A stretch of 64,000 nt of DNA from an uncultured Bifidobacteriaceae bacterium (GCA_964532525.1 CAZHIM010000003.1:4819-68818); one strand, 5' to 3'; counted from the stretch's first letter, positions 10,715-13,704 are shown. Translations and numbers: made by a program. The notes: a model not told the origin generated them from the letters alone.

Positions 10715-11470
10715 ATGCTCACCGGCGTTGTGTTTGACATCAAAGAATTTGCCGTGCATGACGGGCCTGGTCTGCGGGTGACGGTATTCTTGAAAGGCTG
10801 CCCGTTGCGCTGTTCCTGGTGCCACAATCCGGAAGGGCAGTCGGCGGAACCGCAGAGGCTTCGCGGAGCCGCCGGTGAACGTCTGGCCGGGGTGACTTTC
10901 AGTTCGCGGGCATTGGCCGATCGCCTCAACAGTCTGGCGCCTTTGCTGCGTGTTGGGGAAGGGGGGGTGACTTTTTCGGGTGGCGAACCCCTGGCTCAAG
11001 CGGACTTTGTTTCGGAGGTGATTGAGCGGTTGGAGGGCCTCCATGTTTTGCTGGATACCTCTGGTTACGCCGACGAAAGCAGCTTCCGCAAGGTCGCCGC
11101 CAAATCACAGCTCGTGTACTTTGACTTGAAACTGATTGACGCCGCCGCGCATTTGAAACACACCGGAGCAGACAATCAGCCGATCCTGCGGAATCTCCGC
11201 GTCTTGAATGAGCTGGGTGTTCCATTTGTGGTTCGCGTGCCGCTGATTCCCGGAGTGACAGACACGGAGGCGAATTTGTCCGCGATTGCCCGGACGGTCG
11301 CGGGAATGCCTGGTTTGCAAAGAATAGATTTGCTTCCGTACAACAAAGCTGCCGGCGCCAAATACCCTGCTTGCGGCATGGTTTTTCGGCCAATGTTCGA
11401 TGAGTCACTCGAGTCAAAGGCCAATTTGTCCTGTTTCAAATCTGCCGGTCTGGAAGCGAGGATCGTATGA
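10715..11470 (+). CDS. Glycyl-radical enzyme activating enzyme (radical SAM, PflA-like short form, ~251 aa)
   Basis: ORF 10508..11470(+), start trimmed to ATG 10715 (MLTGVVFDIKEFAVHDGPGLRVTVFLKGCPLRCSWCHNPE, the CxxxCxxC triad). Also VTFSGGEPL. No additional Cys-rich ferredoxin-like insert. Its stop overlaps the GRE start (ATGA). Confidence 0.85.
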   Translation: MLTGVVFDIKEFAVHDGPGLRVTVFLKGCPLRCSWCHNPEGQSAEPQRLRGAAGERLAGVTFSSRALADRLNSLAPLLRVGEGGVTFSGGEPLAQADFVSEVIERLEGLHVLLDTSGYADESSFRKVAAKSQLVYFDLKLIDAAAHLKHTGADNQPILRNLRVLNELGVPFVVRVPLIPGVTDTEANLSAIARTVAGMPGLQRIDLLPYNKAAGAKYPACGMVFRPMFDESLESKANLSCFKSAGLEARIV

Positions 11471-13704
11471 ACCGACTCCTTGGCGCGCCAACCTCCCGTC
11501 CCCGGTTCAAAGCTTCGGCCGCGCCGGTGGCCGGGGTGGACCCAAGCCGTTCCAGAGGCCGGACCAAGTTTGAATTGGAACCGCGGTTGGCGGCCATGAA
11601 GCGGGCTTTGCGGGAGGGGTATTACAAGCAGTATCGCACCTCGCCGGAGGTGAATTTGCTCGCTGAATGCGAGGCCGAACAGCTCTCCTGGCCGCGGCGG
11701 GCCGCGCGTTTGATCCGGCGCATGTGCGAAGCCCAGAAAGTTGTCATTCGCCCGGAGGAACGAATCGTCTTTACGCGTACAGTCGAAAAGGTTCCACCGG
11801 TTTACAGCGAATCCCAGCAGCGGGCGCTGACCGCCGGGCGCGAGTTCCATGAATTGGGGCCGATCAGCAATATCTGCGCAGATTGGGGAATGGTTCTGTC
11901 GCAGGGCCTGTCGGGCCGGCGCAAGGCTGCGCTCGCCACCCGTAAAAGGCTGAGCCATGATCCGAAGGCCGTCGAGTTTCTGGACTGCGCGGTCGAGACA
12001 ATCGATGCGGCGGTGGACCTGGCCCGGCGTTATGCCGAGGAGGCTTCTCGGATTCATCGGCATGAGATGGCTAAAATTCTCTATCGCGTGCCGGAGCAAC
12101 CTGCGGGCACATTTCACGAAGCGCTGCAAGCGTTGCGTCTATGCCATGCCGTTTTGTGGTTGGGCGGACACTATCACTGCGGGCTGGGGCGGTTTGACCA
12201 ATACATGTGGCCGTATCTAAAGAAGGATCTGGAACTGGGCCGGATAGATGTCGGCGGCGCCGAACAATTGCTGGCGGAATTTTTTCTATCGTTGAACAAG
12301 GATAGCGATTTGTATCCCGGCATCCAACAAGGTGACAATGGACAATCGCTCATGCTCGGCGGCGTCAAACGCGACGGTTCCAGCGGGGTGAATGAATTGA
12401 CCTATATGGCGCTCCGAGTGGCGCGCGGCGTGGCGATGATTGATCCCAAGATCAATTTGCGGGTCGCGAAAGCCACCAGCCTGGATCTGTTGGAACTGGC
12501 GGCGGAATTGACGCAAATTGGCCTGGGATTTCCGCAATATTCAAATGACGACGTGGTAATCCCCGGATTGGTCGCGCATGGCTATGAACTGGAGGACGCG
12601 CGGGACTATGCCGTGGCGGCCTGCTGGGAATTTTTAATCCCCGGCTGCGGCATGGAGGTCGTTAACTTGGGAGCGGTATCAATGCCGGCGGCGGCTGACA
12701 CGGCCATCCGCGCCGGCTTGGCCGCCGGCGATTCGTTCGATAGAATACTGGTCCGGGTGGGCACCAATCTGCACTCACAGGTGGCAAAGCTGGCGGAGCG
12801 TTCCGCCCGCCTGCTCCTCCCGCCCGCCCCCTATTACAGCGTGTTGATGAGCGGCTGTCTGGAGCGCGGCTGTGACCTGTCACAGGGGCTAAAATACAAC
12901 AACGTTGGCATTCACGGCGCCTGCTCATCCAATGCTGCGGATGCATTGGCCGCGGTGAAGACGCTGGTGTTTGAAGAGCACAGCGTGTCTTCCCAACGTC
13001 TGTTGGCGGCGCTGAACACAAACTTCGAGCAGGCCGAACCGCTCCGGCGGCGGCTGTTCGATGAAGCGCCCAAGGTTGGCAATGACGATGCCCGTGCCGA
13101 TGCGATGTTGGTCAAGTTGTTCGACCTTTTTGCCGACGCTTGCGAATCCATCCCAGCCGATGGACGCGGCGGGATCCTTCGCCCCGGCAGCGGTTCGGCC
13201 ATGTTCTATGTCTGGCTGGCGCGAGGCCATGACGGGATGACCGAGCCGGTGGTTGGCGCCACGGCGGACGGACGAAAGAGCGGCGGCTATTTCAGTTCCA
13301 GCCTGGCTCCATCGCCCGGCGTGCGGGTGCGCGGGCCATTCAGCGTCCTGAAGAGTTACAGCAAGATCAACTATCAACGCATCTGCAACGGCGGGCCGCT
13401 GACGCTGGAAGTTTCCGACACGGTTTTTCGAAATCCGGAAGCGGTGCACCAAGTGGCCTTGCTCATCCGCGTGTTTGCCGCCGTGGGCTGTCAGCAACTT
13501 CAAATTAACACGCTCAACGTCGAGTCCCTCAAAGACGCCCAGGTGCATCCGGAACGGCACCAGAACCTGGTGGTGCGTGTCTGGGGCTGGAGCGGATATT
13601 TTTGTGAGCTAGACGAGGCTTTTCAGAACCAAATTATCGGTCGCCACATCTACGGCGAGCCGGCGCCAGGCAAACTGCCATGTCAAATCCATAACAAAGA
13701 ATGA
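11467..13704 (+). CDS. Glycyl-radical enzyme, PFL2/dehydratase-like family, 745 aa, substrate unknown
   Basis: ORF 11467..13704(+). C-terminal glycyl loop NLVVRVWGWSGYFCELDEAFQNQIIGR. Cys loop DYAVAACWEFLIPG (Cys followed two residues later by Glu, GCxE-like rather than the PFL CC motif). Confidence 0.85.
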   Translation: MNRLLGAPTSRPRFKASAAPVAGVDPSRSRGRTKFELEPRLAAMKRALREGYYKQYRTSPEVNLLAECEAEQLSWPRRAARLIRRMCEAQKVVIRPEERIVFTRTVEKVPPVYSESQQRALTAGREFHELGPISNICADWGMVLSQGLSGRRKAALATRKRLSHDPKAVEFLDCAVETIDAAVDLARRYAEEASRIHRHEMAKILYRVPEQPAGTFHEALQALRLCHAVLWLGGHYHCGLGRFDQYMWPYLKKDLELGRIDVGGAEQLLAEFFLSLNKDSDLYPGIQQGDNGQSLMLGGVKRDGSSGVNELTYMALRVARGVAMIDPKINLRVAKATSLDLLELAAELTQIGLGFPQYSNDDVVIPGLVAHGYELEDARDYAVAACWEFLIPGCGMEVVNLGAVSMPAAADTAIRAGLAAGDSFDRILVRVGTNLHSQVAKLAERSARLLLPPAPYYSVLMSGCLERGCDLSQGLKYNNVGIHGACSSNAADALAAVKTLVFEEHSVSSQRLLAALNTNFEQAEPLRRRLFDEAPKVGNDDARADAMLVKLFDLFADACESIPADGRGGILRPGSGSAMFYVWLARGHDGMTEPVVGATADGRKSGGYFSSSLAPSPGVRVRGPFSVLKSYSKINYQRICNGGPLTLEVSDTVFRNPEAVHQVALLIRVFAAVGCQQLQINTLNVESLKDAQVHPERHQNLVVRVWGWSGYFCELDEAFQNQIIGRHIYGEPAPGKLPCQIHNKE

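What the first reader, a model, noticed from the sequence alone, without database searches (positions are those of the whole stretch)
10715..13704. Divergent glycyl-radical enzyme (ACWE Cys loop, RVWGW Gly loop) paired with a minimal, insert-less activase
Seen: a 745-aa GRE with glycyl loop VVRVWGWSGYF and Cys loop AACWEFLIPG. The Cys is followed two residues later by Glu, the signature I associate with dehydratase/lyase GREs (glycerol/propanediol dehydratase, CutC, HypD, IslA) rather than PFL. The usual Gly before the Cys and the Val/Pro around the Glu are replaced (A-C-W-E-F). Its activase is only ~251 aa and has no second Cys-rich ferredoxin-like insert after CPLRCSWCHNPE. As far as I recall, activases of GCxE-type GREs normally carry that insert. 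The gene order is activase first, with an ATGA overlap. The enzyme is at the small end for the family and begins with a ~45-aa low-complexity leader. Taken together this looks like an uncharacterised GRE clade with unknown substrate.
Basis: partly seen in the sequence, partly recalled or inferred. Interest (0 to 1): 0.8.

Follow-up and report, generated by a model that had tools for sequence, protein, structure and literature searches.

The report
Uncharacterised sugar-linked glycyl radical enzyme
This is an intact pair of genes for an oxygen-sensitive radical enzyme and its helper, from a widespread untested family that sits in sugar (mainly arabinose) utilisation gene clusters of uncultured anaerobes, so it probably does unknown radical chemistry on a plant sugar.

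Summary
Window 10715-11470 encodes a 251-aa radical-SAM activase with no ferredoxin-like insert. It overlaps by ATGA a 745-aa glycyl radical enzyme (GRE, 11467-13704) with Cys loop AACWEFLIPG and Gly loop VVRVWGWSGYF. The GRE fails every curated model of a characterised GRE and is at most 25-29% identical to any solved or E. coli GRE. It folds confidently as a GRE barrel (pLDDT 91.6; TM about 0.8 to glycerol and propanediol dehydratases, PflD and CutC). It belongs to a large family that I found described in no paper: at least 585 species-level genomes, nearly all MAGs, across many phyla. About 25 candidate pocket residues are invariant across the family. That includes the 43-49% sister clade, so I infer one substrate. 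Gene neighbourhoods are dominated by sugar genes: monosaccharide ABC or sugar-porter transporters, XylR/LacI regulators, GH51-like and GH127 arabinofuranosidases, araA/araB-like/araD, and sometimes galK and galM. Chloroflexota add corrinoid methyltransferase genes. The insert-less activase is a secondary loss, because sister-clade activases keep an 8-10 Cys insert. Best reading: a new CxE-type radical C-O-cleaving enzyme acting on a neutral monosaccharide or a close derivative. The exact reaction is unknown. This window also holds a relic of a deleted ABC transporter and a bacterial microcompartment (BMC) locus 14 kb away.

The parts
10508..10708 (+). Relic of the first ~66 codons of a sugar ABC-transporter ATPase, in frame with the activase ORF; the rest of the ATPase, the permease and the binding-protein gene are deleted in this genome
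   Evidence: blastx gives 59% identity over 61 aa (E 2e-22) to the ABC ATPase that lies upstream of the activase in relative L009. The Walker A motif is degenerate (GKNGASKS). The ORF is listed as 10508..11470.
10715..11470 (+). Glycyl-radical-enzyme activating enzyme (radical SAM), 251 aa, radical-SAM domain only
   Evidence: Pfam Radical_SAM and Fer4_12. NCBIfam TIGR02494 scores 199 bits against a cutoff of 174, matched in two stretches that skip the insert region. Cys occur only at 29, 33, 36, 220 and 240. It aligns with PflA and PflC.
10799..10822 (+). CX3CX2C motif (CPLRCSWC, C29-C36) that binds the SAM-cleaving [4Fe-4S] cluster
   Evidence: Translation; conserved in 62 of 63 family activases.
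10835..10933 (+). Cys-free linker (about residues 41-73) in the place where other GRE activases carry the ferredoxin-like Cys-rich insert
   Evidence: Alignment with PflC and PflA. Activases of the >=55% clade have 0-2 Cys in the 90 aa after the motif. Sister-clade activases have 8-10 Cys there and are 281 aa.
11458..11470 (+). GAGGA ribosome-binding site, then ATGA start/stop overlap (translational coupling of activase and GRE)
   Evidence: Sequence read.
11467..13704 (+). Glycyl radical enzyme, 745 aa, founding a family with signature motifs QQGDNGQ, DPKINLRV, AACWEF, RPGxGSAMxY, NGGPLT and RVWGWS
11467..11571 (+). N-terminal ~35-aa disordered, Pro/Arg/Ser-rich leader, lineage-specific (Verrucomicrobiota relatives)
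   Evidence: Segment 1-24 below pLDDT 50 and block means of 35, 40 and 49 for residues 1-30. Variable in homologues up to FELEPRL. Absent from most family members.
12616..12645 (+). Cys loop AACWEFLIPG with catalytic C386 and E388 (CxE)
   Evidence: Aligned to GDH C433/E435 and to the PflD and CutC Cys loops. Invariant in the family.
13570..13602 (+). Glycyl radical loop VVRVWGWSGYF with G707
   Evidence: Pfam Gly_radical. Aligned to RVAGYS of GDH, PflD and CutC. Invariant in the family.
13709..17101 (+). Secreted GH51-like putative arabinofuranosidase (DUF1080/3keto-disac_hyd + ASD1 + AF_C + LamG), same operon direction
   Evidence: Pfam. The same gene type follows the GRE in 10 of 59 core loci.
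17128..19608 (+). Second GH51-like paralogue (start placed at the Met before the signal peptide)
   Evidence: Pfam; ORF translation.
4353..5765 (-). XylR-like sugar regulator (periplasmic-binding-protein fold + AraC HTH), divergent from the locus
   Evidence: Pfam. The same regulator type is next to the GRE in relatives.

Best explanation
The two genes encode a working glycyl radical enzyme system of a new, function-untested family.

Shown:
- The activase has the SAM-cluster motif and passes the GRE-activase family model.
- The GRE has the full barrel fold, the radical Gly (G707) and the catalytic Cys-x-Glu (C386, E388).

Inferred from established GRE chemistry:
- The activase cleaves SAM and abstracts a hydrogen from G707.
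- The radical passes to C386.
- The thiyl radical abstracts a hydrogen from a carbinol carbon of the substrate.
- E388 deprotonates that hydroxyl to give a ketyl radical.
- A neighbouring C-O bond breaks (loss of OH or OR, or ring opening).
- The product radical takes the hydrogen back from C386.

Inferred from genomic context and pocket composition:
- The substrate is a neutral monosaccharide of the L-arabinose / D-galactose type, or a close derivative.
- It is imported by a monosaccharide ABC or sugar-porter transporter.
- The carbonyl product is handed to nearby Zn-dependent or short-chain dehydrogenases or to central pentose metabolism.
- The whole family has a single substrate, because the candidate pocket residues are invariant.

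Rough likelihoods:
- Active CxE-type radical eliminase or isomerase: 0.8.
- Substrate is a sugar or sugar derivative: 0.55.
- Substrate is L-arabinose itself: 0.2-0.25.

The activase works without the auxiliary Fe-S domain, as PFL activase does.
For: Family membership and fold:
- Searches place the pair in the GRE and GRE-activase families. The model has pLDDT 91.6 and TM about 0.8 to GDH, PD dehydratase, PflD and CutC.

CxE class and mechanism precedent:
- The review read describes the CxE Glu hydrogen-bonding the substrate hydroxyl in the 1,2-eliminases and isomerases. These include the sugar-phosphate isomerases YbiW and PflD.

Conservation:
- All 120 closest homologues keep AACWE and RVWGWS.
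- Relatives at 38-50% identity keep them too.
- About 25 positions that align with pocket strands are invariant across the Ara, Gal and methyltransferase contexts and the sister clade. They are N135, H237, Q287-Q293, D326, K328, N330, N400, R572, G574, G576, M579, Y581, N641-P644 and T646.

Context:
- 45 of 59 core loci have a sugar gene within 8 kb, and 25 of 59 have an arabinose-specific one.
- A recurrent operon reads SBP - ABC - (MtaA-like x1-3 + corrinoid protein) - activase - GRE - araA - ZnADH - FGGY kinase - araD.
- araA scores 827 bits against a cutoff of 622, and araD 339 against 251.
- GH51-like and GH127 genes follow the GRE.
- Sugar-porter MFS, galK and galM also occur.
- A cultured sister-clade host carries ABC - activase - GRE.

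Pocket composition:
- By alignment, GDH Tyr640 corresponds to invariant Gly576 and position 574 is also Gly (the two E. coli GREs aligned have Gly there too). From this I infer a larger, polar pocket.
Against: - No biochemical datum exists for any member, so the substrate is inferred from neighbours only.
- 14 of 59 core loci show no recognised sugar gene within 8 kb.
- One 47% relative sits in a biosynthetic-looking cluster.
- The canonical araBAD genes need no radical enzyme, so the metabolic role of the GRE next to them is unexplained.
- The His that protonates the leaving hydroxyl in GDH (His164) is Asn135 here. The chemistry may therefore differ from simple dehydration.
- Pocket residues were assigned by sequence alignment, because model coordinates could not be inspected.
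- In this window the transporter is deleted.
Confidence: 0.55

Rival explanations
1. It is a divergent small-diol dehydratase (1,2-propanediol, glycerol or ethylene glycol). In this genome it would supply propionaldehyde or acetaldehyde to the neighbouring Planctomycete/Verrucomicrobia-type bacterial microcompartment (BMC) that processes fucose and rhamnose.
For: - The best structural and sequence neighbours are glycerol dehydratase and 1,2-propanediol dehydratase.
- The window carries fucI, an MFS transporter and lutABC. A BMC locus with PduL, acetate kinase, aldehyde dehydrogenase, class II aldolase and a PduS-like gene starts 14.4 kb downstream.
- Zn-dependent alcohol dehydrogenases recur near the GRE.
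Against: - No BMC shell gene is found in any of the 90 fetched loci. Pocket residues are invariant across the family, so the BMC proximity is specific to this window.
- The GDH and PD general acid His is Asn here. GDH Tyr640 is Gly and Asp447 is Asn.
- The GRE scores 300 bits against a 678-bit cutoff for the PFL2/glycerol dehydratase subfamily model.
- No aldehyde dehydrogenase family is among the 25 most frequent Pfam families of the downstream neighbours.
- The leader is Pro-rich and disordered, not an amphipathic encapsulation helix.
Confidence: 0.12
2. It is a radical lyase that frees arabinose or galactose from an ether- or glycoside-linked partner, or removes methanol from an O-methyl sugar. 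The sugar oxygen or methoxide would be the leaving group in place of water. Possible substrates are hydroxyproline-O-arabinoside from extensins and glycosyl-glycerols.
For: - araA directly follows the GRE, which suggests that free arabinose is a product.
- GH127 (the family of the Hyp-arabinoside beta-L-arabinofuranosidase; from my own knowledge) and an M24 peptidase are neighbours.
- Corrinoid methyltransferase modules lie next to the GRE in 17 of 59 core loci, which hints at methylated substrates.
- Asn in place of the general-acid His would fit a better leaving group (inference).
- Trans-4-hydroxy-L-proline dehydratase (HypD) is among the better NCBIfam matches.
Against: - No proline or pyrroline-5-carboxylate genes were noticed among the neighbours.
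- The transporters are monosaccharide types.
- The methyltransferase module is confined to Chloroflexota, although the pocket is invariant everywhere.
- Hydrolases for these bonds exist, so the need for radical chemistry is unclear.
Confidence: 0.1
3. It is a radical decarboxylase that converts a uronic acid to a pentose (D-galacturonate to L-arabinose, or D-glucuronate to D-xylose), linking pectin or arabinogalactan-protein acids to the adjacent arabinose pathway.
For: - GRE decarboxylases exist (review).
- Invariant Arg572, on the strand that carries the anion-binding Arg678 in isethionate sulfite-lyase (IslA), could bind a carboxylate. Asn135 is one turn away. (the positional mapping is my inference.)
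- araA, araB-like and araD genes lie immediately downstream.
- Arabinose, galactose and methyl groups are all pectin components (my knowledge).
Against: - The transporters are of the neutral-monosaccharide type.
- No pectinase or uronate genes were seen among the neighbours.
- There is no precedent for Kolbe-type decarboxylation of an aliphatic alpha-alkoxy acid by a GRE.
- The family scores lower against arylacetate decarboxylase models than against eliminase models.
Confidence: 0.07
4. It is a pyruvate formate-lyase, as public annotations name its relatives.
For: The sources name the homologues 'pyruvate formate-lyase' or 'formate C-acetyltransferase'. The Pfam domain is called PFL-like.
Against: - PFL needs two adjacent Cys, and this family has Ala385-Cys386.
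- The PFL equivalog model scores 45 bits against a cutoff of 994.
- Identity to E. coli PflB is 23.5%.
- It carries the CxE motif of the eliminases.
Confidence: 0.01

Closest known systems
B12-independent glycerol dehydratase (Clostridium butyricum, PDB 1R8W/1R9D) and GRE 1,2-propanediol dehydratases (5I2G, 9RCO)
   Same: - Best sequence and structure matches: phmmer 2e-68, Foldseek E about 1e-43, TM about 0.8.
- Same barrel fold.
- Same Cys-x-Glu and RVxG loops.
- GDH His281 is kept as His237.
   Different: - Only 24-25% identity.
- GDH general-acid His164 is Asn135, Asp447 is Asn400 and Tyr640 is Gly576.
- The loop GGYPMYQ is replaced by QQGDNGQ.
- The N-terminus is about 60-70 residues shorter.
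- The activase has no ferredoxin-like insert.
- The genomic context is sugar uptake and arabinose catabolism, not dha or pdu genes.
GRE isomerases PflD and YbiW (1,5-anhydromannitol/glucitol-6-phosphate ring-opening; PDB 8ID0, 8YJO, 8ID7)
   Same: - These are the only characterised GREs acting on sugars.
- CxE motif.
- Similar scores: 29% and 28% identity to E. coli PflD and YbiW.
- Encoded next to sugar transport genes.
   Different: - PflD and YbiW keep His at the position of Asn135.
- They lack R572, G576, K328, N330 and the Trp residues of the two loops.
- Their substrates are phosphorylated through a PTS, whereas this family sits with ABC or MFS transporters of free sugars.
- The PRK09983 model scores 257 bits against a cutoff of 1109.
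Choline trimethylamine-lyase CutC
   Same: - Top hit of the family profile (1e-123).
- CxE motif.
- Carries a non-His residue (Asp216) at the position of Asn135.
   Different: - 22-24% identity.
- The TIGR04394 model scores 232 bits against a cutoff of 1050.
- No cut or eut context and no BMC within the family loci.
PFL-activating enzyme PflA (radical-SAM domain only) and PflC-type GRE activases
   Same: - CX3CX2C, DGPG and GGEP motifs.
- About 250 aa with no auxiliary clusters, like PflA.
- Passes the PFLE_PFLC family model, like PflC-type activases.
   Different: - By sequence it is closer to the insert-bearing group: 32.5% identity to PflC against 27.1% to PflA, and below the PflA cutoff at 158 against 232 bits.
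- It has lost the insert, which sister-clade activases retain with 8-10 Cys.
- It serves a CxE GRE, not PFL or RNR.

Membership tests
Glycyl radical enzyme superfamily (PFL-like branch) | C-terminal glycyl radical motif RVxG[FWY] in a Gly_radical domain | tested here: met
   RVWGWS with G707. Pfam Gly_radical 5.8e-18. Aligned to RVAGYS of GDH, PflD and CutC.
Glycyl radical enzyme superfamily (PFL-like branch) | Catalytic Cys on the Cys loop at the barrel centre; ten-stranded barrel fold | tested here: met
   C386 aligns with GDH C433. The AlphaFold model has pLDDT 91.6. Foldseek TM is about 0.8 to more than 30 GRE structures.
Glycyl radical enzyme superfamily (PFL-like branch) | Cognate radical-SAM activase encoded adjacent | tested here: met
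   The activase overlaps the GRE start by ATGA. An activase is adjacent in at least 63 of 84 loci.
Glycyl radical enzyme superfamily (PFL-like branch) | Formation of an EPR-detectable glycyl radical | not testable with these tools
   Needs anaerobic co-expression and EPR.
CxE-type GRE 1,2-eliminases / isomerases (GD, PD, HypD, CutC, IslA, HpsG, HplG, YbiW, PflD) | Cys-x-Glu on the Cys loop | tested here: met
   C386-W387-E388, invariant in the family. The motif is defined in the review.
CxE-type GRE 1,2-eliminases / isomerases (GD, PD, HypD, CutC, IslA, HpsG, HplG, YbiW, PflD) | Score above the curated cutoff of any characterised member's model | tested here: not met
   The best equivalog hit is 257 bits against a cutoff of 1109. 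The PFL2-3 subfamily model scores 300 against 678.
GRE dehydratases (GD, PD; also His in PflD/YbiW) | General-acid His after barrel strand 1 (GDH His164) that protonates the leaving hydroxyl | tested here: not met
   Aligned residue is Asn135: present in every aligned locus except one AraA-context sequence that has Gly there.
Pyruvate formate-lyase | Adjacent Cys-Cys pair on the Cys loop, and a pass of the PFL equivalog model | tested here: not met
   Ala385-Cys386. TIGR01255 scores 45 bits against a cutoff of 994.
GRE-activating enzymes (TIGR02494 PFLE_PFLC) | CX3CX2C cluster motif, GGE SAM motif, family model passed | tested here: met
   CPLRCSWC and FSGGEP are present. The model scores 199 bits against a cutoff of 174.
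GRE-activating enzymes (TIGR02494 PFLE_PFLC) | Ferredoxin-like insert with up to eight extra Cys after the cluster motif (typical of activases other than those of PFL and RNR) | tested here: not met
   No Cys between C36 and C220. The model is matched in two stretches that skip the insert.
GRE-associated bacterial microcompartments (BMC) | GRE and activase encoded within a BMC shell-gene locus; encapsulation peptide on the enzyme | tested here: not met
   Shell genes lie at 28.1-33.9 kb, 14 kb away and behind other operons. None occurs in the 90 fetched loci. The leader is disordered and Pro-rich.

The most novel reading that the evidence does not exclude
The family is the first glycyl radical enzyme that acts directly on a free plant-cell-wall monosaccharide (L-arabinose/D-galactose type) or its methylated or uronic derivative. 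That would define an unrecognised anaerobic branch of pentose metabolism in abundant uncultured soil, peat and groundwater phyla. It would also be the first CxE-type GRE activated by a radical-SAM-only activase, showing that the auxiliary Fe-S domain is dispensable outside PFL and RNR.
Probability: 0.35. Interest if true: 0.8.

Novelty: new variant of a known kind. Interest (0 to 1): 0.66.

Why it matters
- GREs carry out anaerobic reactions that are otherwise hard to achieve. The 2026 review stresses that whole clades remain unassigned.
- This clade is large, occurs in many phyla and is tied to arabinose-rich plant glycan use. Its reaction would therefore bear on anaerobic carbon turnover in soils, peat, sediments and digesters.
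- The only known sugar-acting GREs, YbiW and PflD, were found recently and revealed a new pathway. A second sugar-linked family with a different pocket would extend that.
- The naturally minimal activase, with sister enzymes that still carry the insert, offers a matched comparison for asking what the auxiliary clusters do. It may also ease the activation bottleneck that limits GRE biochemistry.

Tried and rejected
- Literature: eight full-text searches found no paper describing this family. The terms covered GREs combined with Verrucomicrobia, arabinose isomerase, arabinofuranosidase, methylated sugar, SSN/sugar and anhydroglucitol, plus Biomaibacter. Only the 2026 review was useful.
- An exact-sequence look-up of the window protein found no record.
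- One alignment call failed on wrong coordinates.
- Binding-protein comparison with PDB gave only generic CUT2 monosaccharide binders, at best a weak 'arabinose binding protein' hit. It cannot name the ligand.
- NCBIfam on neighbours confirmed araA, araD and galK. It left the Zn-dehydrogenase, M24, MtaA-like and several conserved hypothetical proteins unassigned.
- I looked for specificity-determining differences between GREs in arabinose and galactose contexts and found none. I therefore rejected the idea of different sugars for different subclades.
- I rejected a strict coupling of the Cys-loop and Gly-loop Trp residues. Other GRE clades have CWE with RVAG/RVGG, or RVWG with CVE/CYE.
- I rejected an epimerase or PFL-like two-Cys mechanism. 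Only one Cys was invariant in the 13-sequence family alignment.
- I rejected BMC membership for the family.
- Model coordinates are not exposed, so pocket volume and docking could not be done.

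
Full report
**Observation**

The coordinates hold two co-directional ORFs. The activase is 251 aa from the ATG at 10715 to the TGA at 11470. The mechanical ORF list extends it to a TTG at 10508, but that extension is something else (see "This window" below). 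The GRE runs 11467-13704 (745 aa). Its ATG overlaps the activase stop as ATGA, and a GAGGA lies 4 nt upstream.

Translation confirms the motifs:
- AACWEFLIPG is residues 384-393, with C386 and E388.
- VVRVWGWSGYF is residues 702-712, with G707.
- The activase motif CPLRCSWC is C29/C33/C36. Its only other Cys are C220 and C240.

Pfam assigns PFL-like plus Gly_radical to the GRE and Radical_SAM plus Fer4_12 to the activase. The leader is about 35 residues, not 45. It is disordered in the model (segment 1-24 below pLDDT 50; block means 35, 40 and 49 for residues 1-30) and variable among relatives until the conserved FELEPRL. Most of the family starts near query residue 37-40.

**Not a member of any characterised GRE family**

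Against NCBIfam, the best match is the broad PFL2/glycerol-dehydratase subfamily model at 300 bits against a cutoff of 678. All equivalogs score 45-257 bits against cutoffs of about 1000. These are PflD-type, HypD, CutC, HpsG, HpfG, indoleacetate and hydroxyphenylacetate decarboxylases, and PFL.

The best solved relatives are glycerol dehydratase (2e-68), PflD, CutC and propanediol dehydratase. A family profile aligns end to end with them. Identity to E. coli PflD is 29%, to YbiW 28% and to PflB 23.5%.

An AlphaFold model built on 61 sequences is confident (pLDDT 91.6, pTM 0.91). Foldseek finds only GREs, with TM about 0.8 and 19-25% identity. The Cys and Gly assignments are therefore not misaligned, and the protein does not nest in a known clade.

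**The family**

- The 120 closest homologues (66-100% identity, Verrucomicrobiota/Limisphaerales MAGs where named) all carry AACWE and RVWGWS.
- An exhaustive search of 50%-identity representatives shows a wider clade of 640-710-aa proteins at 37-50% identity. Nearly all of those that cover the loops keep AACWE[FYVL] and RVWGWS.
- Below that lie other uncharacterised clades with GCWE or RVWGF, and then the canonical GCVE/RVAGY enzymes. Trp at these two loop positions is therefore a signature of this family but not unique to it.
The 80 loci kept were all metagenome-derived assemblies. The titles name Verrucomicrobiota, Chloroflexota/Anaerolineae, Planctomycetota, Acidobacteriota, Lentisphaerota, Spirochaetota, Alphaproteobacteria, Bacillota, Bacteroidota and a few other groups.
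- One cultured host of the sister clade was found, Biomaibacter acetigenes.
- I found no paper on the family. Sources call it pyruvate formate-lyase, which the single Cys (Ala385-Cys386) contradicts.

**Activase**

The 2026 review by Imrich et al. (PMC13450708) states two things. First, the vast majority of GRE activases carry a ferredoxin-like domain with eight extra Cys. Second, only the PFL and class III RNR activases are radical-SAM-only.

The window activase passes the PFLE_PFLC model, with the match split around the missing insert. It fails the PflA model. It is closer to E. coli PflC than to PflA.

All activases next to GREs of the >=55% clade have 0-2 Cys in the 90 residues after the cluster motif, and most are 251 aa. 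Most activases next to the 43-49% sister-clade GREs (Bacillota, Bacteroidota, Lentisphaeria) are 281 aa with 8-10 Cys there. The insert was therefore lost within this family.

**Genomic context**

I called ORFs in 86 loci, clustered them, and named the recurrent clusters with Pfam and NCBIfam. Pfam-annotated neighbourhoods from the assembly index agree.

- Within 8 kb of the GRE, 45 of 59 core loci have a recognisable sugar gene, and 25 of 59 have an arabinose-specific one.
- The typical Chloroflexota operon is: binding protein - ABC ATPase - permease (CUT2 monosaccharide type) - one to three MtaA/CmuA-like methyltransferases - corrinoid protein - activase - GRE - L-arabinose isomerase - (M24) - Zn-dehydrogenase - FGGY kinase - L-ribulose-5-phosphate 4-epimerase.
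  - araA scores 827 bits against a cutoff of 622.
  - araD scores 339 bits against a cutoff of 251.
- Verrucomicrobiota and Planctomycetota have a XylR-like regulator, the ABC transporter or a sugar-porter MFS, activase - GRE, then GH51-like and/or GH127 genes.
- Some loci carry galactokinase instead. Sister-clade Bacteroidota loci carry MFS - activase - GRE with aldose 1-epimerase and GH36.
- One 47% relative lies in a biosynthetic-looking cluster.

**One substrate**

Positions that align with the strands and loops forming the pocket in GDH, CutC and IslA show no differences between arabinose-context, galactose-context and methyltransferase-context loci or the sister clade. The only exception is one AraA-context sequence with Gly at 135. 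The positions are N135, H237, Q287-Q-G-D-N-G-Q293, D326, K328, N330, C386-W-E-F389, N400, R572, G574, G576, M579, Y581, N641-G-G-P644, T646, W706 and W708.

Mapped on GDH:
- His164, the acid that protonates the leaving hydroxyl according to the review, is Asn135.
- His281 is His237.
- Asp447 is Asn400.
- Tyr640 is Gly576.
- Invariant Arg572 sits two residues before Gly574, on the strand that carries the sulfonate-binding Arg678 in IslA. This positional mapping is my inference.

The residue set is polar and implies a roomier pocket than in the small-diol dehydratases.

**Interpretation**

What is shown:
- an intact GRE-activase pair;
- the catalytic residues of the CxE class;
- a conserved, multi-phylum, uncharacterised family;
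- a strong association with uptake and catabolism of arabinose/galactose-type monosaccharides;
- a secondarily minimised activase.

What is inferred:
- the usual radical relay from Gly707 to Cys386;
- hydrogen abstraction from a substrate carbinol carbon;
- Glu388-assisted ketyl formation and cleavage of a neighbouring C-O bond;
- a neutral monosaccharide or close derivative as the substrate.

One scenario I consider plausible but untested is modelled on the glycerol dha system. The GRE plus the Zn-dehydrogenase would form a dehydrating and reducing side branch of arabinose fermentation, alongside araA, the FGGY kinase and araD.

Alternatives are:
- release of arabinose from an ether or glycoside conjugate, or demethoxylation of a methyl sugar;
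- uronate decarboxylation to a pentose;
- a small-diol dehydratase.

**This window**

Two local features bear on the reading.

First, nt 10508-10708 encode, in frame with the activase, a relic of the first ~66 residues of the ABC ATPase that precedes the activase in close relatives. It is 59% identical to the L009 ATPase (E 2e-22) and has a degenerate Walker A. This genome has therefore deleted the dedicated transporter, and the activase may be made as a fusion or from its own ATG.

Second, the GRE operon is followed by an AraC regulator, L-fucose isomerase, an MFS transporter and lutABC. Then comes a Planctomycete/Verrucomicrobia-type microcompartment locus at 28.1-37.5 kb. That locus holds shell genes, a PduS-like gene, DeoR, PduL, acetate kinase, aldehyde dehydrogenase and a class II aldolase.

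This raises the diol-dehydratase rival for this genome. However, no shell gene is found in any of the 90 fetched loci, and the pocket is invariant across the family. I therefore treat the proximity as local.

**Verdict**

Both the observation and the interpretation are supported. The system is a new, function-unknown variant within a known enzyme superfamily. It comes with a specific and testable substrate class and a useful natural experiment on the activase insert.

Noticed in passing
window 10508-10708 (+): Relic of the N-terminus of a sugar ABC-transporter ATPase, fused in frame to the activase ORF. Close relatives have the ATPase, permease and binding-protein genes upstream of the activase (ATPase first, binding protein adjacent to the activase), so this genome deleted its transporter.
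   Followed up: yes
window 28128-37492: Complete-looking Planctomycete/Verrucomicrobia-type bacterial microcompartment locus. It holds three BMC-H genes (31694-31984, 32017-32295, 33502-33879), a larger shell-like gene (28128-28679, minus strand), a PduS/RnfC-like gene, DeoR, PduL, acetate kinase, aldehyde dehydrogenase, small EutN-sized ORFs and a class II aldolase.
   Followed up: partly
window 19880-27376: AraC regulator, L-fucose isomerase, an MFS transporter and lutA/lutB/lutC-like lactate utilisation genes lie between the GRE operon and the microcompartment locus. Together they look like a fucose/rhamnose-to-lactate route.
   Followed up: partly
window 6026-10354 (+): A 1442-aa secreted protein made of two near-identical halves, each with two LamG (Laminin_G_3) domains plus Ig-like domains, directly upstream of the activase. 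A similar LamG tail is on the first GH51-like protein and on the 1021-aa protein at 37788-40853.
   Followed up: no
loci L014, L018-L020, L023, L025, L026, L028, L036, L040, L046, L054, L056, L068 (upstream of the GRE): In Chloroflexota, one to three MtaA/CmuA-like (URO-D family) methyltransferase genes and a corrinoid-protein gene lie directly before activase-GRE, often with an oppositely oriented transglutaminase-like gene. This suggests anaerobic demethylation of a methylated sugar or another methyl donor. Their link to the GRE is unexplained.
   Followed up: partly
locus L006 (P0121, 47% identical GRE): A family member with a 250-aa activase sits among AMP-binding enzymes, carrier proteins, a B12-binding radical SAM enzyme, a glycosyltransferase and a kinase. 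This is a biosynthetic-looking context unlike the sugar loci.
   Followed up: no
locus L005 12209-12640: A Y1 (IS200-like) transposase gene is inserted between the GRE and its activase, which is inverted there.
   Followed up: no
representatives P0163-P0270: Further uncharacterised GRE clades of about 650-965 aa have Cys loops such as NDGCWEVLIPG, SACWEPLIPG or GCYE. Their Gly loops are RVWGFSAY, RVGG or RVTG. Sequence space around the CxE class is much wider than the characterised enzymes.
   Followed up: no
window 41035-42663 and 42686-43678: A sulfatase gene and a gene with an N-terminal prepilin-type methylation motif, typical of Verrucomicrobiota/Planctomycetota glycan-degrading genomes.
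   Followed up: no
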